DNA of 64,000 nt from Terriglobia bacterium. GTDB lineage: Bacteria > Acidobacteriota > Terriglobia > Terriglobales > Acidobacteriaceae. The stretch is from contig CAWHVH010000014.1 in assembly GCA_963832635.1 (NCBI GenBank), positions 51,397-115,396 on the forward strand, in the 5' to 3' direction. Position numbers and translations under genes: made by a program. Positions 19,093 to 64,000 of the stretch are shown here, in pieces (the first letter of the stretch is position 1; the number at the start of each line of letters is the position of its first letter). The notes under the pieces are model-generated. The model was not told the DNA's origin and ran no database searches. It was given only the letters and a program-made list of their open reading frames with translations.

Positions 19093-19521
19093 ATGATAGG
19101 CAGAATCGTACTGGACACATCGGTCATCGTTTCTGCGCTCAGGAGCCGGAGCGGCGCGGGGAATGCGGTGCTCCAATTGGTTGCGACCCGTCAATTGCTC
19201 CTCTTGATGTCGCCTCCACTCTTTCTTGAGTACGAGGACGCATTGAAACGCCCCGAGCATCGCTTGGTACATGGGCTGACTCTGGACGAAGTCGACGAAT
19301 TCTTGCGAGAGCTGGCGGCTCTTGTGGAACCGGTTGATCTCCATTTTCAGTGGCGGCCGCAGTCGCGAGATCCGAGTGACGAGATGGTTCTAGAAACAGC
19401 GATCAACGGGCGGGCAGAAGCTCTGGTCACTTACAATGTGGTTGATTTTGCCGCGGCAGGAAAGCGCTTCGGAATTCCGATTCTCAGGCCGGGCGATCTT
19501 TTGAAAAAGGCGAAACGATGA
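19093..19521 (+). CDS. PIN-domain toxin (toxin-antitoxin system)
   Basis: The N-terminal VLDTSVIV acidic motif and overall PIN_3-like layout. It overlaps the downstream small gene by 4 nt. Confidence 0.72.
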   Translation: MIGRIVLDTSVIVSALRSRSGAGNAVLQLVATRQLLLLMSPPLFLEYEDALKRPEHRLVHGLTLDEVDEFLRELAALVEPVDLHFQWRPQSRDPSDEMVLETAINGRAEALVTYNVVDFAAAGKRFGIPILRPGDLLKKAKR

Positions 19522-55587: not shown

Positions 55588-56891
55588 GCATCTCGTGGGC
55601 ATCGTGATTCTTGGCCTCGGCGTGGCCGCAGCCCAGGCGCAATACTCCGGCCAGACCGTCCGCCACCACAAGATCGCCACAGTCGACTCGTCGCAACCTC
55701 CTGAACTGACCGCAGCCGAAGCTTCCATCGAAAAAAAAGATTACCCCGCGGCGGAACCGCTGTTAAAGAAAGTCGTAGCTGCGGATCCCACGAACTACGC
55801 CGCCTGGTTCGATCTCGGATTCATCTACAACGCGCTCGGCCACTCCGACGAATCGATTGCGGCTTATCGCAAGTCCGTCGCGGCTAAGCCCGATGTCTTC
55901 GAGTCCAACCTGAACCTGGGATTGATGCTGGCCCGCGCTAACCAGCCCGACGCCGAGCAGTTTCTGCGAGCGGCCACCAAGCTGACGCCTACCGCCAATG
56001 TAAATGATGGGCAAGCCCGCGCATGGGTGTCGCTGGCCCACGTGCTCGCTCCCTCGAAACCGGATGAAGCCATCCAGGCCTATCGTCAAGCCGCCGTGCT
56101 TCAGCCCAAAGATCCCGAGCCGCACCTGGCATGCGGTCTTCTGTTCGAAAAACAGAATCAGTTCGCGGACGCCACCGAAGAATACAAAGCAGGCCCTCGC
56201 GCTCGATCCCGATTCCAGCGATGCTCTCACCGGCTTGGCCAATATCTACACCCGCGGGCAACGCTTCTCCGACGCCGAGGGAGTCCTGCGCCAGCTCGTG
56301 GCTCTGCATCCGGAGGATGCCGGGGCCCACATGCAGTTGGGACGCATGCTGGCAGCCGCGGGCAACAACGATGCCGCTATCGCCGAACTGCAAACCGCGG
56401 TCAAGTTGGCTCCGAGCGACGCCGGCGCGCAGCGCGACCTTGCCGACCTCTACGCCAACACTAAGAAGTTTGACCTGGCGGTAGGCCGGTATCGAGCCCT
56501 CCTCACCGCCAACCCCAAGGACGCGGAGTTGCATCAGAGGCTCGGCAATGCCTTCCTGGAACTGAGGAAGTTCCCCGAGGCGCAACAGGAATTCTGGATT
56601 GCGGTGCATCTCAAGCCGGATTTCGGCTTGGCCTGGGGCCAGTTGGCGGTGGCCGCCGATGAAAATAAGAACTACCCCCTGGCCATCCTGGCCCTCGATA
56701 CCCGGGCTAAGTACTTGCCGGAAATGCCGGTTGGCTATTTTCTTCGCGCTACGGCGTATGACCACTTGCGCGATTACCAGAAAGCGTCAGAGAATTACCA
56801 TCGGTTTCTTGAGGTCGCGAATGGGCAGTTTCCCGACCAGGAGTGGCAGGCACGCCATCGCCTGATCGCGATTGAGCCCAAGAAAAAGTGA
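55574..56891 (+). pseudogene. Secreted TPR-repeat protein, frame broken by an apparent 1-nt insertion
   Basis: ORFs 55574..56464 and 56004..56891 both encode TPR repeats. They join at ..ATEEYK / QALALDPDSS.. at the A3 run at 56186-56188. Confidence 0.62.
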
Positions 56892-56898
56892 AGCCACG

Positions 56899-57339
56899 AT
56901 GCGCCGGACGGCCATCATCTTCGTGCCTGTGATTCTGACACTGCTCGCAGCGTCCGCAGCGAAAGACGAGTCTGTGCCCGAGTTGGTCGCCCGCGCCGAA
57001 ACCGCCCGCCTGCAGGACCGCCCAAAGCTCTACACCGAAATCGCCGAGCGCGAACTCGAGGCCGCCGACCAGTTCTATAACCAAGGCAAAGTCAATCAGG
57101 CGCAAGCGGCTGTGAGTGATGTCGTGAGCTATTCCGATAAGGCTTCCGACGCCGCGTCGAAGACAGGGAAGAAACTCAAGAACACTGAAATCGCCGTGCG
57201 CAAGATGGCGGAGAAGCTTCGCGATATCAAGCGCAGCCTCGCTTTCGAGGATCAGGCTCCGGTACAAACCGCCATTGAGCACATGGAAAACCTGCGCACC
57301 AAACTGCTAAACCGGATGTTTGGCATAGGTGCCAGATGA
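56899..57339 (+). CDS. Hypothetical secreted helical protein
   Basis: Signal peptide (MRRTAIIFVPVILTLLAASAA). No family recognised. Confidence 0.45.
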   Translation: MRRTAIIFVPVILTLLAASAAKDESVPELVARAETARLQDRPKLYTEIAERELEAADQFYNQGKVNQAQAAVSDVVSYSDKASDAASKTGKKLKNTEIAVRKMAEKLRDIKRSLAFEDQAPVQTAIEHMENLRTKLLNRMFGIGAR

Positions 57340-57875
57340 CCGCTTCGTGGAAGGGCGCTCTTGCCTGCGTGTTCTTCTTGGTGTCCCTTTGGCCGTCAAC
57401 TGCGCAAGCACGCCACGACCCCTTGACCCCCATCGAAATCGATCAACTGCGTGACGCCGCGCAAGATCCGGGACAAAGGTTAAAGTTGCTCATTACCTTC
57501 GCCCGGGCTCGCCTGGACGCCGTTGAGAAAGCGCACGCCGACCCCAAGGCAACCGCTCGCGGCCAGCAGACCCACGACCGGCTGCAGGATTTCCTCGATG
57601 TCTACGACGAACTGGACGACAACATCGACATGTTCACCGATCGCAGCGCCGATCTCCGCAAGCCTCTCAAAAATATTCTCGAAGCCGACACCGAGTTTCA
57701 GGCCAAGCTTCGTGCGCTCAAGCAGTCGGCTACTGCAACCCCCGAGGAATTCACTCAGTACGAACTCCTGCTGGCTAACGTGCTCGACACTCTCGACGAC
57801 AGCAGCCAGGACCACCGCCAGTTACTGACCGAACAGGAAGAAGCTGCCAAGCATAAGAAGCCGTCCAAACCTTGA
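57336..57875 (+). CDS. Hypothetical secreted helical protein
   Basis: Signal peptide. Overlaps the upstream stop (ATGA). No family recognised. Confidence 0.45.
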   Translation: MTASWKGALACVFFLVSLWPSTAQARHDPLTPIEIDQLRDAAQDPGQRLKLLITFARARLDAVEKAHADPKATARGQQTHDRLQDFLDVYDELDDNIDMFTDRSADLRKPLKNILEADTEFQAKLRALKQSATATPEEFTQYELLLANVLDTLDDSSQDHRQLLTEQEEAAKHKKPSKP

Positions 57876-57921: not shown

Positions 57922-58608
57922 GTGAGCGACAGGCTTCTTCAATTCTTCCACGAAAGCTATCGTGAACTGCGCCCGCACGCGCCCATCCCTGAGTTGACCG
58001 TGGAATTCTTCGCCTTCGCCAACCTGAACAACACCATTCGCCTGCGCGAGGGCAAACTGCTGGTGCGCCTTTCCGATCTACTGGAAGGCGCTCCGGAACC
58101 GGTGCTGCGCTCCATCGCCCACATCCTCCTGGCCAAGATGTATCGCAAACCGGTCGAGCGCAGCCACTCCACGCGCTATCGCCGCTATGTCTCTGGCCAC
58201 GATATCGTGGCGAAGGCGCATTTGGTCCGGCAGCTGCGCGGGCGCAAACGGATCGCCTCCGCCCGCGGCAGGACTTACGACCTGGAACAAGTTTTTGAAG
58301 AATTAAACCGGCGTTTTTTCCACGGCCTGCTCGCCCGCCCGCAGATGAGCTGGAGCCGCGACCATGCACGCAACAGTCTCGGGCACTACGATCCCGCGCA
58401 CAACGCCATTGTGGTCAGCCGGGTATTCGACCATCCCCGGGTTCCCCGCTGCGCCGTCGAGTACATCGTCTACCACGAGATGCTGCACCTGAAGCATCCG
58501 GTGAAATTGCGCGGCAGCCGCCGCTGCGTGCACTCCGCCGAGTTCCAGGCAGAGGAGAAAATGTTTCCCGAGCTCGAGCCCGCCAAGCGCTTCCTGCGGC
58601 AACTCTAA
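57922..58608 (+). CDS. Zinc metallopeptidase-like protein (YgjP/DUF45 or SprT-like, HExxH)
   Basis: HEMLH motif (YIVYHEMLHLKHP) followed by HSAEF. GTG start. Confidence 0.55.
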   Translation: MSDRLLQFFHESYRELRPHAPIPELTVEFFAFANLNNTIRLREGKLLVRLSDLLEGAPEPVLRSIAHILLAKMYRKPVERSHSTRYRRYVSGHDIVAKAHLVRQLRGRKRIASARGRTYDLEQVFEELNRRFFHGLLARPQMSWSRDHARNSLGHYDPAHNAIVVSRVFDHPRVPRCAVEYIVYHEMLHLKHPVKLRGSRRCVHSAEFQAEEKMFPELEPAKRFLRQL

Positions 58609-58717: not shown

Positions 58718-58746
58718 TTGAAATTGAAATTCATTTTCAAAATCAT
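58718..58746. promoter_or_regulatory. AT-rich Fur-box-like hexamer array / palindrome upstream of the FTR1 operon
   Basis: TTGAAA TTGAAA TTCAT TTTCAA AATCAT. TTGAAA-5 nt-TTTCAA is a perfect inverted repeat. Read as GAAATT GAAATT CATTTT C, it matches about 14 of 19 positions of the classic Fur box GATAATGATAATCATTATC. It lies 18 nt upstream of the ATG. Confidence 0.45.
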
Positions 58747-58763: not shown

Positions 58764-60011
58764 ATGCTGGAAGCATTCATTATCACCTTGCGCGAGGGAG
58801 TCGAGGCCGCCCTCATCGTAGGTATCACCCTGGCTTACCTGGCCAAGATCAACCGCCCCGACCTTAGAAAGTCGGTCTACTCCGCCCTGGTCGCCGCCTT
58901 TCTCGGTAGCATCGGCGTTGCCATCCTGCTCTCCCGCACCCAGTGGAATCAGGACATTTTCGAGGGTTGGGTCATGCTGGCGGCCGCCTTCTTCGTGGTC
59001 ACCATGATCATCTTCATGATGAAGACCGGCCGCAGGCTCAAGGGCCAGATTGAGGGAAAAATTGGCCTCCTGGCGGGCGAGGACGCCTGGTTCGGCCTCT
59101 TCCTTTTCGTCTTCCTCATGGTCCTGCGCGAAGGCGTCGAAACCGTCCTGATCCTGGGAGCGGTCTCCCTGAACTCCACCGAACTGCTCAGCTTCATGGG
59201 CACCCTGCTGGGCGTTCTGGTTGCGATTCTGTTCGGGGTGATGTTCGTCAAGGGCAGCGTCCGTATCAATCTCCAAAAGTTCTTCCGGGTGACCACGGTG
59301 ATTCTGTTCTTTGTCGCGGCCCAGTTGGTCATTTCCGGCCTGCACGAACTTTCGGAAAATGGAGTGCTTCCCTCCTCCAAGCGCGAAATGGCCCTCATCG
59401 GACCCATTGTGCGCAACGAATCGTTTTTCCTGGTGACGATCCTGGCCCTCGCCGCCCTGATGGTTCTGTTTGAAGTGAAACGCCGCCAGCCCACGGCCCT
59501 GCCCGAGTCTCCTGCGGAGCGCCGCAAAGCCTTGTGGAGCGCCCGCCGCGAACGTTTCTGGATGGCCTCGGTTTACGCCTCCTCGTTCCTGTTCATCGTA
59601 ATGGTCACGGCGGAGTTCATTTACGCCAAAAGCGTCAGCGCCCTCTCGCCCGCGACCGAAGTCAGCTTCGTCAATGGCGTGGTCACCATTCCCCTCAGCA
59701 AGGTTTCCGATGGCGACCTGCACCGCTACCAGGCCAATGAGAACGGAACGGAAGTCCGCTTCTGGCTCTACCGAAAGCCCGACGGTAAGGTCGCAACCGT
59801 CTTCGACGCCTGCGAGATCTGCGGCGCCGTGGGTTTCTACAAGGGACCGGAAGGAATTGTCTGCAAGAACTGTGCTGCACCCATCAACGGGCAGTCCGTC
59901 GGCATGCCCGGAGGCTGTAACCCCATCCCCCTTGCATCGCAAGCGACCTCGGATGCGGTGATCATCAAGGAGGCGGACATCGCGGCTCGCGCCAAAATGT
60001 TCCAGCAATAA
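58764..60011 (+). CDS. FTR1-family iron permease fused to a DUF2318-like Cys-rich domain
   Basis: Two REGxE motifs (TLREGVEAAL, VLREGVETVL) lie in the membrane domain. The C-terminal roughly 130 aa carry CEICGAVGFY...CKNCAAPING, typical of DUF2318-type proteins. Confidence 0.72.
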   Translation: MLEAFIITLREGVEAALIVGITLAYLAKINRPDLRKSVYSALVAAFLGSIGVAILLSRTQWNQDIFEGWVMLAAAFFVVTMIIFMMKTGRRLKGQIEGKIGLLAGEDAWFGLFLFVFLMVLREGVETVLILGAVSLNSTELLSFMGTLLGVLVAILFGVMFVKGSVRINLQKFFRVTTVILFFVAAQLVISGLHELSENGVLPSSKREMALIGPIVRNESFFLVTILALAALMVLFEVKRRQPTALPESPAERRKALWSARRERFWMASVYASSFLFIVMVTAEFIYAKSVSALSPATEVSFVNGVVTIPLSKVSDGDLHRYQANENGTEVRFWLYRKPDGKVATVFDACEICGAVGFYKGPEGIVCKNCAAPINGQSVGMPGGCNPIPLASQATSDAVIIKEADIAARAKMFQQ

Positions 60012-60014
60012 TCC

Positions 60015-61271
60015 ATGTTTGTTCGCCTCGTCTATGAATCCTTCCGGCGGCAAAAACGTCGCAAATTACTAGCCGGCATCGCCATTACCCTGGGCGTTGG
60101 TGTGGCCACGGCCATGATTGCGGTGGCTACCGACATCGGCGACAAGATCAACCGCGAACTCCGCAGCTACGGGGCGAACCTCGTCGTCACTCCGCAGGAA
60201 GACACGCTCGACTTGCAAATCGGCGGGGTGGACCTCAAGCCGCCCAGCGACGGCGCATACCTGAACGAAGCCGACCTGCCCAAGATTCGCGGTACATTCT
60301 GGCGGCACAACATCATCGGCTTTTCCCCGATGCTGCCCGTGAATGTAACCCTCGCCCCCGGTCAGCAGGTCACCCTGCTCGGAACCTACTTCTCCAAGCA
60401 ACTCAAATTCGGCACCGATGAATTCACCACTGGCGTGCGGATCACTCACCCCTGGTGGAAGGTGCAGGGTGCGTGGCCGCTCGATAGCTCACAAGATGTT
60501 CTTCTGGGTGAGCGGCTGGCCGCGAAACTGGACGAAAAGCCGGGAGACTCGATTGAGATTTCCGGGCAGGCGCACAACATCGCCGGCATTCTTTCCACGG
60601 GTGGAGCTGAAGACGATCAGGTAGTAGCTCCACTGTCCTTGGCGCAGCAGATTCTTGGCAAGCCCGGCGCGGTGCGGCGGATTTACGTCAGCGCGCTCAC
60701 CAAGCCCGAAGACGCCCTGGCAAAGCGCGATCCCAAGTCGATGAACCCCGAGCTCTTCGACCGCTGGTACTGCTCTCCTTACGTGCAATCCATCGCCTAC
60801 CAGTTGCAGGAAGCGATCCCGCATTCCCACGCCGAGCAGATTCGTCAGGTGGCGCAAAACGAAGGCACGGTTCTGTCGCGCATCAAAGGCCTGATGCTGC
60901 TGGTCACGCTGGCCGCGCTCCTTGCCTCGGCCCTCGCGGTCTCGGCGGCCATGGCCACCGCTATTTTCGAGCGCCGGAGCGAGGTAGGGCTCATGAAAGC
61001 CTTGGGCGCCGGCAATGCTTCGGTAGCCGCTCTTTTCTTCACCGAGGCTGTACTCCTGGCTTTAATTGGCGGCACCGCAGGATTCGCCGGCGGAGCCTAT
61101 CTGGCGCGGCAAATTGGACGCTCCATCTTCAACTCGCAGATCACCATCGATCCCGTGCTCTTCCCCATCATTCTCGCGATTGCCGTGATCGTAACCTTTG
61201 CCGGAAGCGCTGCTGCTATCCGCCGCGCGGTGAATTTCGATCCCGTGCATGCGCTCAAGGGGGAGGCATGA
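60015..61271 (+). CDS. ABC transporter permease, FtsX/MacB type
   Basis: N-terminal TM helix, large periplasmic domain, C-terminal FtsX 4-TM module (ERRSEVGLMKALGA). Confidence 0.8.
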   Translation: MFVRLVYESFRRQKRRKLLAGIAITLGVGVATAMIAVATDIGDKINRELRSYGANLVVTPQEDTLDLQIGGVDLKPPSDGAYLNEADLPKIRGTFWRHNIIGFSPMLPVNVTLAPGQQVTLLGTYFSKQLKFGTDEFTTGVRITHPWWKVQGAWPLDSSQDVLLGERLAAKLDEKPGDSIEISGQAHNIAGILSTGGAEDDQVVAPLSLAQQILGKPGAVRRIYVSALTKPEDALAKRDPKSMNPELFDRWYCSPYVQSIAYQLQEAIPHSHAEQIRQVAQNEGTVLSRIKGLMLLVTLAALLASALAVSAAMATAIFERRSEVGLMKALGAGNASVAALFFTEAVLLALIGGTAGFAGGAYLARQIGRSIFNSQITIDPVLFPIILAIAVIVTFAGSAAAIRRAVNFDPVHALKGEA

Positions 61272-62426
61272 GTTCGCACCCCTCGCAACTCGCGCAGGAA
61301 GTTGCGGCCCGCCGCGCCCAGGCTCCGCACACCTCAATGTTCCTTCGCATGCTGATGCGGGCCGCGGTTCTGCGCCGCGGGCGCGCCGCCTCTGCCCTGC
61401 TCGCCATGGTGGTGGCCGCAGCGGTAGCCACAGCGATGCTCAATCTCTACGTCGATGTGCAGGCCAAGTTGCGCAAGGAATTCCGCAATTACGGCGCGAA
61501 CGTCGTGGTCGTCGCAAAAGACGGGCAATCTCTGCCTGCCAATGCGCTTACGACGGTGGAATCGACACTCTGCCGGGCGCGGCCTTGCAGTACCCTTTGC
61601 CTACGTGGTCGCCCGCACCAGCGATGGCCAATCCGTCGTCGTCTCAGGAACCGACTTCGACCAGGTCAAGAAACTCGATAGCTGGTGGGCCGTCACCAAC
61701 TGGCCCGCCACATCGGAAGACGCGCTCGTCGGAGTTCGCGCCGCCGCCGTCGTCAGTCCGCAAGGCAAGCCCTTCGATCTCAGTTTCCAGGGACGTACCC
61801 TCCACCTCAATTCCGCCGGCGCCTTACGTACGGGTGCCGCCGAAGACAGTCGCGTCTATCTCCGCCTCGCCGATTTCGAAACCTGGACCGGAGTTCAGCC
61901 TTCGACCATTGAGATTGCCGCTTCCGGTTCACCGGACGAGATCGCTGCGATCATGAAGCAGCTGACCAGTGCTCTGCCGGAAACCGAGGTTCGCCCGGTG
62001 CGCCAGATCATGGAAGGCGAAGCTCGCGTGCTGGGCAAGACGCGCGCAACCTTACTGGCGGCCGCAATACTCATCATCCTGACTTCCGCTTTATGTGTCC
62101 TCTCCACCCTGATGGGATGGGTCTTTGACCGGCGCCGCGATTTTGCCATCATGAAGGCGTTGGGAGCCTCGGAACGCCTCATCAACGGCTTCTTTGCTGC
62201 CGAAGCGGCCGCCCTTGGCGTAGTAGGAGCCGTCGTGGGTTTCGCCATCGGAGTCGGGGTAGCGGCCTGGATCGGGCGGGTTAATTTCAACGCTCCCGTC
62301 GTGCCTCGCTTCAGTATCCTGCCCGCAATTGTGCTCGGGAGCATCGCCGTGGCTCTGCTGTCCTCGGTCTTGCCGATTTTCCTGCTGCGACGCGTCGAAC
62401 CAGCTATGATTTTGAGGGGAGAATGA
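61268..62426 (+). pseudogene. Second FtsX/MacB-type ABC permease, frame broken by an apparent 1-nt insertion
   Basis: ORFs 61268..61681 and 61455..62426 overlap in different frames and together give a MacB-like permease (DRRRDFAIMKALGA). A candidate insertion site is the G3 run at 61575-61577. The true start may be Met 61337 (MFLRML, parallel to MFVRLV of the first permease). Confidence 0.68.
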
Positions 62427-62445: not shown

Positions 62446-63669
62446 ATGATCAAACTCAAGAATGTGAGCCGTCTCTATCCCGCACGGGCCGAACAAAACG
62501 GCGGCACCATTCGCGCCCTCGACAATTTCACTCTCACTGTCGATCCCGGCGAATGGGTCGCCATCATGGGCCCTTCTGGCTCCGGCAAATCGACCCTGGT
62601 GAATTTGATCGGTTGCCTTGATCGCCCCACCTCGGGCGAGATCTGGCTCGACAACCAGAACGTTGCCAACATTTCCCCCGCCGATCTCAACCGCGTGCGC
62701 GCCGAAAAAATCGGCTTCGTCTTCCAGCAGTTTCACCTCATCCCTTATCTCACCGCGCTCGAAAACGTCATGCTCGCCCAGTATTTTCACAGCATGACCG
62801 ACGAGCAGGAAGCGCTCGAAGCGCTCGAGCGCGTTGGCCTGAAAGAGCGCGCCCATCACGTTCCTTCGCAGCTTTCCGGTGGCGAGCAGCAAAGAGTCTG
62901 CATCGCCCGCGCCCTCATCAACGATCCCAAGATTGTTCTGGCCGACGAACCAACGGGCAATCTTGACGCGCAGAACGAAGAGATCGTACTGCGCCTGCTG
63001 CGCGAACTCCACCAGCAGGGACGCACCATCGTGATGGTCACTCACGACCCCGTCGTAGCCCGCCTCGCCGACCGCCGTATCGAGCTTCACCACGGCAAGA
63101 TCGCAGCCCAGGAACTTTTCTCCATGGCAGACGAAGAGCAGTTCGACGAGGTCCTCGAAGAGCTGTGGGCGCTGGCCGAGAACCACCAACCGGCTGAAAT
63201 CGGCCTAATGGAAGTGCATGGCGCACTTCCGGTGAGTATTGCTGTAGAAAAAATGGTGGAACTCGGACTGGTCGCGACTACGCCGCATCCACCCGAAAAC
63301 CACGAGCACAAGCCCTTTGTGAATCCCTGTCACGACGCGCTCAAGCCCACCGGCGTCTCTGTCGGCGATGGCAGCCTGATTGTCGAACTGACCCAGCGAG
63401 GCCGCCAGCGCGCCGCCGACATCATTCGCCGCCATCGCCTGGCCGAGCGCCTGTTCACCGACAGCCTTGCCCTCGACAGCGAGTCCGAGATCGAGCAGCA
63501 AGCCTGCAAGTTCGAACACATCCTTTCGCACGAAGCGACCGACAAAATCTGCACCTTCCTGGGACACCCTCGCACTTGTCCCCACGGCGCGCCGATTCCT
63601 CCGGGACCGTGTTGCGGGAGAGAATCGAAGAACGAACCGCTGGATGCGGTCGCGGCGCGAAGAGTCTAG
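62446..63669 (+). CDS. ABC transporter ATP-binding protein (MacB/LolD type) fused to a DtxR/IdeR-like metal-dependent regulator domain
   Basis: Residues 1-225: Walker [10 protein letters not shown], signature LSGGEQQRV, Walker [12 protein letters not shown]-loop VTHD. Residues 227-407: [18 protein letters not shown] and [14 protein letters not shown], colinear with the DtxR dimerisation/metal-binding domain. Confidence 0.8.
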
Positions 63670-63678
63670 ACCCGCCCG

Positions 63679-64000
63679 TCAAGCAAACGGATTCTGAATG
63701 CGCAGTCCTTCGACCTTGCGCCCGTGCTGCAGGTCTTCGCTGTATAGAATTTCGCATTGGCTGGCGCTGGCCGCCGCTACAATCAAGGCGTCATACCACG
63801 ACATGCCGTGTTTTCCCGACAACGTCAACGCTTCCAGATAGAGGGCCGGTGAAGAGTGAACCGCCAGCAACGGCCGGAACACCGTTGCCAGATACTGTTC
63901 CGCTTCCGCTACCGACATAGGCTGCACAAAACGCTTCAGCGCAACGTTGAAAAATTCCTGAACCACCTGATAGCTGATAAGGCCCCGGCGGGTCGCCAGG
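63679..64000 (-). CDS. PIN-domain (VapC-like) toxin, N-terminus outside the window
   Basis: The frame stays open to the window edge. The C-terminal PIN pattern (SWYDALIVAAA ... LYSEDLQHG) is present. Confidence 0.6.
   Translation of the reverse strand, partial: LATRRGLISYQVVQEFFNVALKRFVQPMSVAEAEQYLATVFRPLLAVHSSPALYLEALTLSGKHGMSWYDALIVAAASASQCEILYSEDLQHGRKVEGLRIQNPFA

What the first reader, a model, noticed from the sequence alone, without database searches (positions are those of the whole stretch)
62446..63669. ABC-transporter ATPase fused in-frame to a DtxR/IdeR-like iron-sensor domain
The first 225 residues or so are a complete MacB/LolD-type nucleotide-binding domain. The frame then continues with no stop into about 180 residues that track the DtxR family. 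[12 protein letters not shown] is nearly identical to the DtxR helix carrying His79/Glu83. ACKFEH reproduces the Cys102-x-x-Glu105-His106 primary metal site, and a Cys at that position is characteristic of Fe-responsive DtxR/IdeR rather than Mn-type Mnt[15 protein letters not shown] closes the domain. The winged-helix part is atypical and is interrupted by a His-rich insert ([12 protein letters not shown]), so DNA binding is uncertain. Hypothesis (inference): the transporter motor senses cytosolic Fe2+ directly. This could be trans-inhibition, analogous to the C-terminal regulatory domains of MetN/ModC/MalK, or a released or moonlighting repressor. An internal ATG at 63124 with an AGGA about 12 nt upstream could also express the sensor domain separately. 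I do not know of a described ABC-NBD::DtxR fusion.
Basis: partly seen in the sequence, partly recalled or inferred. Interest (0 to 1): 0.82.

Follow-up and report, generated by a model that had tools for sequence, protein, structure and literature searches.

The report
ABC motor with built-in DtxR-type metal sensor
The ATP-burning subunit of an iron-uptake transporter in soil Acidobacteria carries a permanently fused copy of a DtxR-type metal-sensing module that seems to have lost its DNA-binding features, so the transporter probably senses cytoplasmic iron itself and throttles its own motor.

Summary
ORF 62446..63669 encodes 407 aa: a complete MacB/LolD-type ABC ATPase (res 1-225) fused to DtxR domains 1+2 (Pfam Fe_dep_repr_C 4.8e-26; model matches IdeR/DtxR, TM 0.74-0.82).

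It is not an artefact. The same in-frame fusion occurs in 81 of 82 related loci and about 240 protein clusters from two Terriglobia clades, always ending an FTR1::FtrD - permease - permease - ATPase operon resembling Campylobacter fetM/fetABCD.

The putative metal ligands (H330, E334, C354, E357, H358) and a further Cys/His set are 80/80 conserved.

The winged-helix part is unlikely to bind DNA. Its net charge is -14, the DtxR DNA-contact residues are replaced, and a His/Cys-rich loop sits in the wing. The upstream palindrome proposed as its operator is a Fur box, also found in front of fur genes.

Best reading (about 0.5): a built-in cytoplasmic Fe2+ (possibly Mn2+) sensor that allosterically restrains the ATPase, as in MetN, ModC and ZnuC.

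Precedents exist: the Chlamydia YtgC::YtgR permease-DtxR fusion and the ZnuC zinc-sensing domain. I therefore class it as a new variant of a known kind. I found no description of it in the searchable literature.

The parts
58720..58738 (+). Fur-box-type operator GAAATTGAAATTCATTTTC, 44 nt upstream of the FTR1::FtrD start codon. The extended near-palindrome TTGAAATTGAAATTCATTTTCAA spans 58718-58740.
   Evidence: It occurs once in the window, against 0 expected by chance. It is present with at most 2 mismatches at the same position in 50 of 63 related loci. The same box lies directly upstream of FUR-family genes in metagenome contigs. By my own comparison it matches the classical Fur box GATAATGATAATCATTATC at 14 of 19 positions.
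58764..60011 (+). FTR1/EfeU-type iron permease fused to an FtrD-like (DUF2318) Cys-rich domain; the equivalent of FetM plus FetA.
   Evidence: Pfam FTR1 2.6e-38 (res 1-200) and FtrD-like 3.9e-29 (res 314-413). NCBIfam EfeU 1.9e-46.
60015..61271 (+). ABC permease 1 (MacB periplasmic core domain plus FtsX), FetB-like.
   Evidence: Pfam MacB_PCD 3.8e-14 and FtsX 7.6e-17.
61268..62426 (+). ABC permease 2 (FtsX type, FetC-like). In this window it is split by a 1-bp insertion near 61570.
   Evidence: It reads in two frames, 61268..61681 and 61455..62426. The 92%-identical contig L001 has an intact 385-aa gene. The window differs by one extra base at about 61570.
62446..63669 (+). The fusion gene: ABC ATPase::DtxR-like module, 407 aa.
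62446..63120 (+). Nucleotide-binding domain (res 1-225), MacB/LolD/FtsE type. Walker A (G42-K48), Q-loop (Q94/Q95), signature (S144-Q149), Walker B with catalytic Glu (D167-E168) and H-loop (H200) are all intact.
   Evidence: These residues are invariant across 55 homologues from two clades.
63124..63393 (+). DtxR domain 1 remnant (res 227-316): helix 1 with the invariant motif D229 E230 F233 D234 L237 E238 W241, a recognition-helix equivalent (res 262-272), and a beta-wing. Net charge is -14.
   Evidence: AF2 model with pLDDT 87. Foldseek matches two-domain IdeR/DtxR over 157-175 aligned columns. No PF01325 hit. Charge. DNA-contact residues are replaced.
63283..63348 (+). His/Cys-rich insert [22 protein letters not shown] (res 280-301) at the tip of the beta-wing.
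   Evidence: The insert is conserved in 78 of 80 fusion proteins: H286, C295 and H296 in 78/80, H281 in 77/80, H288 in 76/80. It is absent from the Acidoferrum clade. pLDDT is low there, consistent with a flexible loop.
63391..63600 (+). DtxR domain 2 (Fe_dep_repr_C, res 316-385): metal-binding and dimerisation domain with H330, E334, C354, E357, H358.
   Evidence: Pfam 4.8e-26. PDB sequence matches to IdeR/DtxR at 7e-17. Ligands are 80/80 conserved.
63550..63615 (+). Extra Cys/His set specific to this DtxR subfamily: C369, H374, C378, H380, C389, C390 (ICT.LGHP..CPHG.PIP.G.CC).
   Evidence: 80/80 conserved in the fusions. C369, H374, C378, C389 and C390 are invariant and H380 nearly invariant across 98 fused and stand-alone relatives. 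IdeR and DtxR lack this set (their sequence here is SPFGNPIPG).
63124..63126 (+). Internal ATG (M227), a candidate internal start.
   Evidence: Met in 78/80 and Thr in the second clade. An SD-like motif lies upstream in 56/77. E223 uses GAA in 94% of sequences, the highest of 32 Glu columns. This is a weak hint only.

Best explanation
The gene encodes the ATPase subunit (FetD-like, MacB/LolD type) of a type VII ABC system. That system belongs to an FTR1-type iron-uptake operon.

The C-terminus of the ATPase is a DtxR-derived two-domain module. It begins with a degenerate, strongly acidic winged-helix domain. Helix 1 of that domain follows the last strand of the NBD after a few residues. The metal-binding dimerisation domain comes next.

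Shown:
- The fusion is real and conserved.
- The module has the DtxR fold.
- The primary-site ligands and an extra Cys/His set are invariant.
- The DNA-contact residues are not conserved.
- The operon promoter carries a Fur box.

Inferred:
- The two C-terminal modules of the ATPase dimer pair through domain 2.
- When cytoplasmic Fe2+ (possibly Mn2+) fills the site formed by helix 1 (E235, E238) and domain 2 (H330, C354, E357, H358), helix 1 is clamped onto domain 2. This is the motion that in DtxR re-spaces the two DNA-binding heads.
- Here that motion would act on the two NBDs and hold them in a non-productive arrangement. ATP hydrolysis, and with it FTR1-dependent uptake, would be throttled when the cell is iron-replete.

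Control would then have two tiers: Fur at the promoter and the fused sensor on the protein.
For: - Architecture and significance.
- Same-frame fusion in 81 of 82 loci, with a conserved operon order.
- All 120 listed clusters in each of two searches (about 240 clusters at 90% identity) have PF00005+PF02742. The second clade (57% identity) has the same operon.
- At least 592 matching stretches in the one-genome-per-species collection encode a relative of the C-half.
- H330, E334, C354, E357, H358, C369, H374, C378, H380, C389 and C390 are 80/80 conserved. Of these, E334, C354, E357, H358, C369, H374, C378, C389 and C390 are invariant, and H330 and H380 nearly invariant, across 98 fused and stand-alone relatives.
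- E235 and E238 align with the MntR ligands D8 and E11.
- Fold: pLDDT 87.4; Foldseek top hits are two-domain IdeR/DtxR at TM 0.74-0.82.
- The NBD catalytic motifs are invariant.
- Each clade has independently acquired a His/Cys-rich loop: a wing insert in one and an NBD-DtxR linker, HLHFD...HGP..PL.CPL..T.DCCT, in 118 of 120 sequences of the other.
- The closest stand-alone relatives (domain 2 plus FeoA, no PF01325) lie immediately downstream of feoB in 5 of 6 loci. This module type therefore keeps company with iron-transporter NTPases.
- Published analogues for C-terminal sensing domains on NBDs: MetN and ModC (PMC10710835) and the ZnuC zinc-sensing domain (PMC12236471).
- fetB, fetC and fetD are each needed for FTR1/P19-dependent growth under iron limitation (PMC10783030).
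Against: - There is no biochemical evidence. Metal binding, metal identity and any effect on ATPase activity are all inferred.
- The full-length model was poor (pLDDT 65), and no multimer model could be run. The geometry linking domain 2 dimerisation to NBD spacing is therefore untested.
- The substrate and role of FetBCD-type transporters are unknown (PMC10783030), so the sign of the regulation (inhibition or activation) is a guess.
- Classical trans-inhibition is described for importers, not for type VII (MacB-like) systems.
- The ligand set is a DtxR/MntR hybrid, so Fe is supported mainly by context.
- The window's own copy of permease 2 is frameshifted.
Confidence: 0.5

Rival explanations
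1. Tethered or released transcription factor, as with Chlamydia YtgC::YtgR. The DtxR-like part would be cleaved off, or translated from the internal ATG at 63124, and would repress the operon or other genes when loaded with metal.
For: - There is a precedent: a DtxR-family repressor fused to an ABC permease and released by cleavage (PMC5599777).
- The winged-helix fold is retained.
- M227 is Met in 78/80, an SD-like motif is upstream in 56/77, and E223 codon use is skewed.
- A SprT-like protease gene is syntenic upstream in most loci.
Against: - Domain 1 has net charge -14 with only 3 Lys/Arg in 90 residues.
- DtxR DNA contacts are replaced: Q43 to Ile, R50 to Glu, S37 to Gly, P39 to Leu.
- A 22-30 residue loop is inserted in the wing.
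- PF01325 is not detected here and hits only 2 of 98 relatives.
- The promoter palindrome is a Fur box shared with fur genes.
- 13 loci carry a different operator, yet the recognition-helix equivalent is identical in 11 of the 12 of them that could be compared, the exception being the Acidoferrum-clade locus.
- M227 is absent from the second clade.
Confidence: 0.12
2. Constitutive dimerisation or scaffold module. The DtxR-derived part would simply hold the two ATPase subunits together or dock them to the FTR1::FtrD protein. The metals would be structural, for example Zn at the Cys/His set, with no sensing role.
For: - Domain 2 is the DtxR dimerisation domain (Pfam description).
- The invariant Cys4/His2 set resembles a structural site.
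- The sequence '[15 protein letters not shown]' is almost invariant, as expected for a protein-protein interface.
Against: - A pure scaffold would not need every primary-site ligand, including the helix-1 carboxylates, kept across clades only 57% identical and across the stand-alone relatives.
- Two clades independently added further His/Cys-rich loops.
Confidence: 0.15
3. Cytoplasmic iron acceptor or redox element. The module would receive iron emerging from the FTR1 permease and pass it on, chaperone-like. Alternatively its Cys cluster would carry an Fe-S centre that reports oxygen or redox state, rather than free metal, to the motor.
For: - Many conserved Cys and His: C369, C378, C389, C390, H374, H380, plus clade-specific loops.
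- The partner FtrD-like domain is Cys-rich, and Fet systems are proposed to depend on redox relays (PMC10783030).
- FeoC is a winged-helix protein with an oxygen-sensitive Fe-S cluster that controls FeoB (PMC10710835).
Against: - Nothing here demonstrates a cluster.
- No coordinates were available to test whether the four Cys are close together.
- The DtxR primary site is a mononuclear or binuclear ion site in all solved relatives.
Confidence: 0.12
4. Artefact: a sequencing or assembly indel removed a stop codon between two separate genes.
For: The window does contain a 1-bp indel that frameshifts the neighbouring permease gene.
Against: The same in-frame fusion is seen in 81 of 82 independent loci, the exception being cut by a contig end. 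About 240 protein clusters from JGI, ENA, NCBI and Logan show it too. No stand-alone version appears in the same operon.
Confidence: 0.01

Closest known systems
Chlamydia trachomatis YtgC::YtgR (CT069), an ABC permease fused to a DtxR-like repressor
   Same: A DtxR-family module is fused C-terminally to a subunit of the ABC transporter encoded in its own metal-uptake operon. The DtxR metal ligands are conserved (PMC5599777).
   Different: - The partner there is the TroC-like membrane permease of a type II importer, not the ATPase.
- YtgR has a working HTH, binds the ytg promoter with Fe2+, and is released by proteolysis.
- Here domain 1 is acidic and lacks DNA-contact residues.
- Here the promoter carries a Fur box.
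ZnuC zinc-sensing domain of E. coli ZnuBC (bioRxiv 2025, PMC12236471)
   Same: The NBD of a metal-uptake ABC system carries a C-terminal Cys/His metal-sensing domain that locks the transporter when cytoplasmic metal is high. A Fur-family regulator (Zur) controls transcription, so the two-tier logic is the same.
   Different: - The ZSD is about 60 residues with a CxxxHxCC motif and is not a DtxR fold.
- ZnuBC is a type II importer that moves the sensed metal itself.
- Here the sensor is a two-domain DtxR derivative on a MacB/LolD-type ATPase, and that ATPase's own substrate is unknown.
Trans-inhibited ABC importers MetNI (C2 domain) and ModBC (PMC10710835)
   Same: A C-terminal regulatory domain directly follows the NBD and dimerises. 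Ligand bound at or near the dimer interface holds the NBDs apart.
   Different: The folds (ACT-like, TOBE-like) and ligands are different, and these are type I importers. For the present protein the effect on the NBDs is inferred only.
Campylobacter jejuni FetMP-FetABCDEF and its ATPase FetD (PMC6083913, PMC10783030)
   Same: An FTR1 permease, a DUF2318/FtrD-like membrane protein, two FtsX-type permeases and an ATPase sit in one Fur-controlled iron-uptake cluster.
   Different: - The papers describe FetD only as an ATP-binding protein, with no extra domain mentioned. I did not examine its sequence.
- Here FTR1 and the DUF2318 domain are fused.
- No P19 or thioredoxin genes are in the operon.
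- The ATPase carries the DtxR module.
DtxR / IdeR / MntR metalloregulators
   Same: The fold of domains 1 and 2 is shared. The H79, E83, C102, E105 and H106 equivalents are present, as are the MntR-like D8 and E11 equivalents.
   Different: - No SH3/FeoA domain 3.
- Domain 1 is not recognised by PF01325, is acidic, and carries a His/Cys loop in the wing.
- There is an extra Cys4/His2 set.
- The module is covalently attached to an ATPase.

Membership tests
ABC transporter nucleotide-binding domain, MacB/LolD/FtsE (type VII) group | Walker A, Q-loop, LSGGQ signature, Walker B with catalytic Glu, and H-loop | tested here: met
   ABC_tran 2.9e-38. The motif residues are invariant in 55 homologues. 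Best NCBIfam and PDB matches are MacB, LolD, MJ0796 and FtsE.
ABC transporter nucleotide-binding domain, MacB/LolD/FtsE (type VII) group | Encoded alongside FtsX/MacB_PCD-type permeases | tested here: met
   Two such permease genes lie immediately upstream. The order is conserved in the related loci.
DtxR-family metal-dependent transcriptional repressor | Metal-binding and dimerisation domain 2 with the conserved ligand set | tested here: met
   PF02742 4.8e-26. H330, E334, C354, E357 and H358 are 80/80 conserved.
DtxR-family metal-dependent transcriptional repressor | N-terminal winged-helix DNA-binding domain (PF01325) with conserved DNA-contact residues | tested here: not met
   The fold is retained. 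But there is no PF01325 hit at E up to 1, net charge is -14, and Q43, R50, S37 and P39 are replaced. A 22-30 residue loop is inserted in the wing.
DtxR-family metal-dependent transcriptional repressor | Metal-dependent binding to a cognate operator | not testable with these tools
   Indirect evidence only. The only conserved operator at the operon is a Fur box, and the helix does not co-vary with operator type.
FetMP-FetABCDEF-type iron uptake cluster | FTR1 permease, DUF2318 (FtrD-like) protein, two ABC permeases and an ABC ATPase in one cluster | tested here: met
   conserved.
FetMP-FetABCDEF-type iron uptake cluster | Periplasmic P19 (FetP) and thioredoxins FetE/FetF in the cluster | tested here: not met
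   No such Pfam families occur among the called genes flanking the operon in L001 or L083. The neighbours are SprT-like, PIN and unrelated genes.
FetMP-FetABCDEF-type iron uptake cluster | Fur box upstream of the first gene | tested here: met
   The box at 58720-58738 is shared with fur promoters.
ABC transporters with a C-terminal ligand-sensing regulatory domain on the NBD (MetN, ModC, ZnuC) | Extra folded domain directly C-terminal to the NBD with conserved ligand-binding residues | tested here: met
ABC transporters with a C-terminal ligand-sensing regulatory domain on the NBD (MetN, ModC, ZnuC) | Ligand binding inhibits ATPase activity and transport | not testable with these tools
   Needs biochemistry.
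YtgC::YtgR-type ABC-component::DtxR fusions | DtxR module fused to the membrane permease and released by cleavage as an active repressor | tested here: not met
   The fusion partner is the ATPase, not the permease. The DNA-binding features are degenerate. Cleavage itself is not testable here.

The most novel reading that the evidence does not exclude
A whole branch of the DtxR family may have been converted from DNA-binding repressors into post-translational metal sensors. This branch is marked by the LE.LW helix 1, C..EH, and the ICT.LGHP..CPHG.PIP.G.CC signature. It has an acidic domain 1 that Pfam's DNA-binding model does not recognise.

On this reading the sensors act directly on the NTPase engines of iron transporters. 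In Chloroflexi, Planctomycetes and other lineages the link would be non-covalent, through the FeoA domain, to FeoB; the gene sits immediately downstream of feoB in 5 of 6 loci, with a separate Fur gene next door in 2. In Terriglobia the link would be covalent, with the FeoA domain replaced by a direct fusion to the FetD-like ABC ATPase.

The DtxR 'caliper' motion would then be re-used as a mechanical brake on a motor.
Probability: 0.25. Interest if true: 0.8.

Novelty: new variant of a known kind. Interest (0 to 1): 0.6.

Why it matters
How bacteria stop iron uptake quickly, once transporters are already in the membrane, is poorly understood. The ZnuC preprint (PMC12236471) explicitly leaves open whether built-in metal sensing exists for metals other than zinc. 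This fusion is a candidate iron counterpart built from a different, well-characterised sensor fold.

It also gives a handle on the unexplained FetBCD-type ABC transporters that accompany FTR1/P19 iron permeases, including those in pathogens (PMC10783030). If the ATPase is gated by cytoplasmic metal, its activity must be rate-limiting for uptake.

It would be a clear case of a transcription-factor module exapted into an allosteric domain.

Finally, it is widespread in Terriglobia, a dominant soil group. At least 592 matching stretches turned up in the one-genome-per-species collection, so it is relevant to iron economy in acidic soils and peat.

Tried and rejected
- Sequencing artefact: rejected.
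- Full-length AF2 model from a two-clade alignment: too poor to use for domain packing (pLDDT 65, pTM 0.48). No multimer prediction and no coordinates were available, so Cys-Cys distances and the dimer geometry could not be checked.
- PDB profile search with alignment A4: dominated by NBD columns and uninformative for the C-half. I repeated it with the NBD-free alignment A5.
- Fixed-window comparison of N-domain charge across relatives: confounded by the wing insert and by fragments. I report only the direct count for the window protein.
- Synonymous-site test for an internal ribosome-binding site: low codon entropy around res 222-235 is largely explained by two-fold-degenerate residues. Only E223 GAA usage stands out, ranking 1 of 32. 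Inconclusive.
- Search for a Fur or DtxR gene in the 64-kb window: none among the 20 further ORFs I scanned (10 of the larger ones and 10 of 142-196 aa).
- The primary YtgR paper (Thompson et al. 2012, PMC3387080) is not held. It is cited through the review PMC5599777.
- Nine literature searches found no description of an ABC ATPase::DtxR fusion. The library lacks most subscription journals, so absence is not proof.
- Whether the architecture occurs outside Acidobacteriota could not be settled. Only the best 150 of 3188 representative hits and the best 80 of at least 592 genome loci were visible.
Full report
**1. The observation**

ORF 62446..63669 (+) is a 407-aa open frame without internal stops.
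- Pfam places ABC_tran at residues 25-170 (2.9e-38).
- Pfam places Fe_dep_repr_C, the DtxR metal-binding and dimerisation domain, at residues 316-385 (4.8e-26, full profile length).
- NCBIfam's best matches for residues 2-224 are MacB (2.6e-68), LolD and FtsE.
- A sequence search of the PDB with residues 226-407 finds IdeR and DtxR (7e-17 to 1e-11). The alignments put RRHRLAERL on the H79/E83 helix and ACKFEH on C102-x-x-E105-H106.

One expected hit is missing: Pfam's N-terminal DNA-binding model (PF01325) does not match, even at E = 1.

**2. Not an artefact, and widespread**

- A search with the full protein returned 120 of 120 listed clusters (86-99% identity, 399-415 aa) with the same PF00005+PF02742 architecture. 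They come from Terriglobales and Acidobacteriia MAGs and carry only generic names.
- A second clade, 57% identical and about 401 aa, named Candidatus Acidoferrum or Acidobacteria, shows the same architecture in another 120 of 120 clusters.
The best 80 are nearly all Terriglobia MAGs.
- In 81 of 82 loci the NBD and the DtxR part lie in one ORF and frame. The exception is cut by a contig end.

The window does carry a 1-bp insertion near 61570 that frameshifts the neighbouring permease gene relative to a 92%-identical contig.

**3. Context**

The gene closes a four-gene operon:
- 58764..60011 encodes an FTR1/EfeU iron permease fused to an FtrD-like (DUF2318) Cys-rich domain.
- 60015..61271 and 61268..62426 encode two FtsX/MacB-type permeases.
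- 62446..63669 encodes the ATPase.

The order is conserved in both clades. This is a compact relative of the Campylobacter fetMP-fetABCDEF cluster. There, FetM is the FTR1 permease, FetA carries DUF2318, and FetBCD is an ABC transporter of unknown substrate. Each of fetB, fetC and fetD is needed for growth under iron limitation (PMC6083913, PMC10783030). P19 and the thioredoxins are not in the operon here.

**4. What the C-terminal half is**

- Modelled with 98 relatives, residues 226-407 fold confidently (pLDDT 87.4, pTM 0.79).
- The model matches two-domain IdeR/DtxR structures over 157-175 aligned columns (E about 2e-8, target-normalised TM 0.74-0.82).
- The module therefore comprises DtxR domain 1 (winged-helix-like) and domain 2, without the SH3/FeoA domain 3.
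- Helix 1 starts at about residue 227-230, a few residues after the last NBD strand.
- The '[12 protein letters not shown]...CH' stretch is an insertion between the two wing strands, with low pLDDT as expected for a flexible loop.

**5. Conservation of ligands**

- In 80 fusion proteins H330, E334, C354, E357 and H358 (DtxR H79, E83, C102, E105, H106) are 80/80 conserved. So are C369, H374, C378, H380, C389 and C390.
- The residue at the DtxR H98 position is Glu in 78 of 80.
- Profile alignment to B. subtilis MntR puts E235 on D8 (equivalent to DtxR M10) and E238 on E11.
- The inferred site is thus E235/E238/H330/C354/E357/H358. This combines MntR-like carboxylates with a DtxR-like Cys. It follows from established work on DtxR/MntR selectivity that such a set does not by itself decide between Fe2+ and Mn2+. 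Iron is favoured by the FTR1 context and the Fur box.
- The extra Cys/His set is absent from IdeR and DtxR, which read SPFGNPIPG there. Within this subfamily C369, H374, C378, C389 and C390 are invariant and H380 is nearly invariant.
- The wing insert is conserved in 78 of 80 (H286, C295, H296 in 78; H281 in 77; H288 in 76) but is missing from the Acidoferrum clade.
- That clade instead has a conserved His/Cys-rich NBD-DtxR linker, HLHFD...HGP..PL.CPL..T.DCCT, in 118 of 120 sequences.
- Two independent acquisitions of His/Cys loops argue for selection on metal handling.

**6. DNA binding is unlikely**

- Residues 226-315 have net charge -14 with 3 Lys/Arg.
- Aligned to DtxR, the base-reading Q43 is Ile265, R50 is Glu272, S37 is Gly and P39 is Leu.
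- The wing tip carries the insert.
- PF01325 hits only 2 of 98 relatives.

However, a metagenome scan found the same box directly upstream of FUR-family genes, often divergent from a penicillin-amidase gene, as well as upstream of FTR1::FtrD (37 of 120 stretches). It has the three-hexamer layout of a Fur box.

Thirteen loci carry a different palindrome (TTGCAACTCAGTTGCAA). The recognition-helix equivalent '[15 protein letters not shown]' is nevertheless identical in 11 of the 12 of them that could be compared, as in the other class. The exception is the Acidoferrum-clade locus. The operator is therefore most simply Fur's, not the fused module's.

**7. Origin of the module**

Its nearest relatives are a broad subfamily of 210-260-aa proteins with domain 2 plus FeoA, and without a PF01325 hit in 120 of 120 listed clusters. 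They occur in Chloroflexi, Kuenenia, Blastocatellia and several archaeal lineages. They share the LE.LW helix 1 and the Cys/His signature. In 5 of 6 loci examined the gene lies immediately downstream of feoB, and in 2 of these a separate Fur gene is adjacent. The Terriglobia fusion looks like this module with the FeoA domain exchanged for a covalent link to an ABC ATPase.

**8. Mechanism**

Shown:
- a catalytically intact NBD;
- a DtxR-fold module with invariant ligands, placed directly after the NBD;
- a Fur-controlled operon.

Inferred: the two modules of the ATPase dimer pair through domain 2. Metal binding between helix 1 and domain 2 produces the DtxR-type domain closure. Because helix 1 continues from the NBD, that closure changes the NBD arrangement and restrains ATP hydrolysis when the cell is metal-replete.

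This is the logic of MetN and ModC (PMC10710835) and of the newly described ZnuC zinc-sensing domain (PMC12236471). I give it about 0.5.

Rivals, which are not all mutually exclusive:
- a YtgR-like released repressor (0.12);
- a purely structural dimeriser (0.15);
- an iron-acceptor or Fe-S/redox element (0.12);
- an artefact (0.01).

**9. Novelty**

Nine literature searches found no description of an ABC ATPase::DtxR fusion. Databases name it only as an ATP-binding protein.

Both ingredients have precedents, however. DtxR fused to an ABC subunit is known from YtgC::YtgR (PMC5599777). Metal- or substrate-sensing C-terminal domains on NBDs are known from ZnuC, MetN and ModC.

I therefore rate it a new variant of a known kind, with interest 0.6. 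It is surprising enough for specialists in metal homeostasis and ABC transporters, and it makes the role of FetBCD-type systems experimentally approachable. It is not categorically new, and its mechanism is unproven.

Noticed in passing
window 61560-61580 (within 61268..62426): The second permease gene (FetC-like) is frameshifted by a 1-bp insertion (TCGACACTCTGCCGGGC versus TCGACGCTGGCCGGGC in L001). Related contigs have an intact 385-aa gene. This is either a sequencing error or a real pseudogene, which would disable the transporter in this genome.
   Followed up: partly
window 58718-58740; L029, L079, L028, L034, L006, L068, L063, L078, L057, L033, L053, L083 at the equivalent position: Two alternative operators occupy the same promoter position in different species. 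One is the Fur-type box TTGAAATTGAAATTCATTTTCAA (50 of 63 loci). The other is an unrelated perfect palindrome, TTGCAAC-TCA-GTTGCAA (about 13 loci, including the Acidoferrum clade). The regulator of the second type is unknown.
   Followed up: partly
L096, L105, L107, L169, L194, L195, L203, L099 (metagenome contigs): The same Fur-type box lies in the divergent intergenic region between a roughly 165-aa FUR-family gene and an 820-870-aa penicillin-amidase-family gene (Ntn-hydrolase acylase). This suggests fur autoregulation and an iron-regulated acylase in Acidobacteria.
   Followed up: partly
L087 6001-6723, L208 5001-5657, L209 5001-5675, L210 5001-5690, L211 5001-5696: Stand-alone relatives of the fused module (Fe_dep_repr_C + FeoA, no detectable DNA-binding domain, same Cys/His signature) lie immediately downstream of feoB. 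In L208 and L209 they overlap the end of the preceding gene. No separate feoA gene is called. A Fur gene is adjacent in L087 and L209. Databases annotate them as DtxR-family transcriptional regulators.
   Followed up: partly
P0148 and P0271-P0389 (second clade), residues about 222-257; L083 8001-9206: The Acidoferrum-clade fusions lack the wing insert. Instead they have a conserved His/Cys-rich linker, HLHFDxxxHGPxxPLxCPLxxTxDCCT, between the NBD and the DtxR module (118 of 120 sequences).
   Followed up: yes
window 57922-58608, 56872-57339, 57336-57875: A SprT-like metalloprotease-domain gene lies directly upstream of the operon in most Terriglobales loci but not in L083. In the window and L001 it is preceded by two small ORFs with signal-peptide-like N-termini and no Pfam match. 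Whether these are functionally linked to the iron operon is unknown.
   Followed up: no
P0214, P0390, P0405, P0420 (about 434-439 aa); P0217 (428 aa): Other fusions of the same DtxR-like subfamily exist. One is [domain 2 + FeoA] followed by an FMN_bind domain. Another is a transketolase-like N-terminus joined to a partial domain 1 + domain 2 + FeoA; the latter may be a gene-call artefact.
   Followed up: no
L065 (labelled Dormiibacterota) and L080 (labelled Gemmatimonadaceae): Two short contigs (5.1 and 2.2 kb) carry fusion genes about 78% identical to the window's C-half but are binned into non-acidobacterial MAGs. This is most likely binning contamination rather than horizontal transfer.
   Followed up: no
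window 63679-63966 (-) and 19093-19521 (+): PIN-domain genes that look like toxins. The one downstream of the fusion gene is paired with a 72-aa ORF in L001, suggesting a toxin-antitoxin pair.
   Followed up: no
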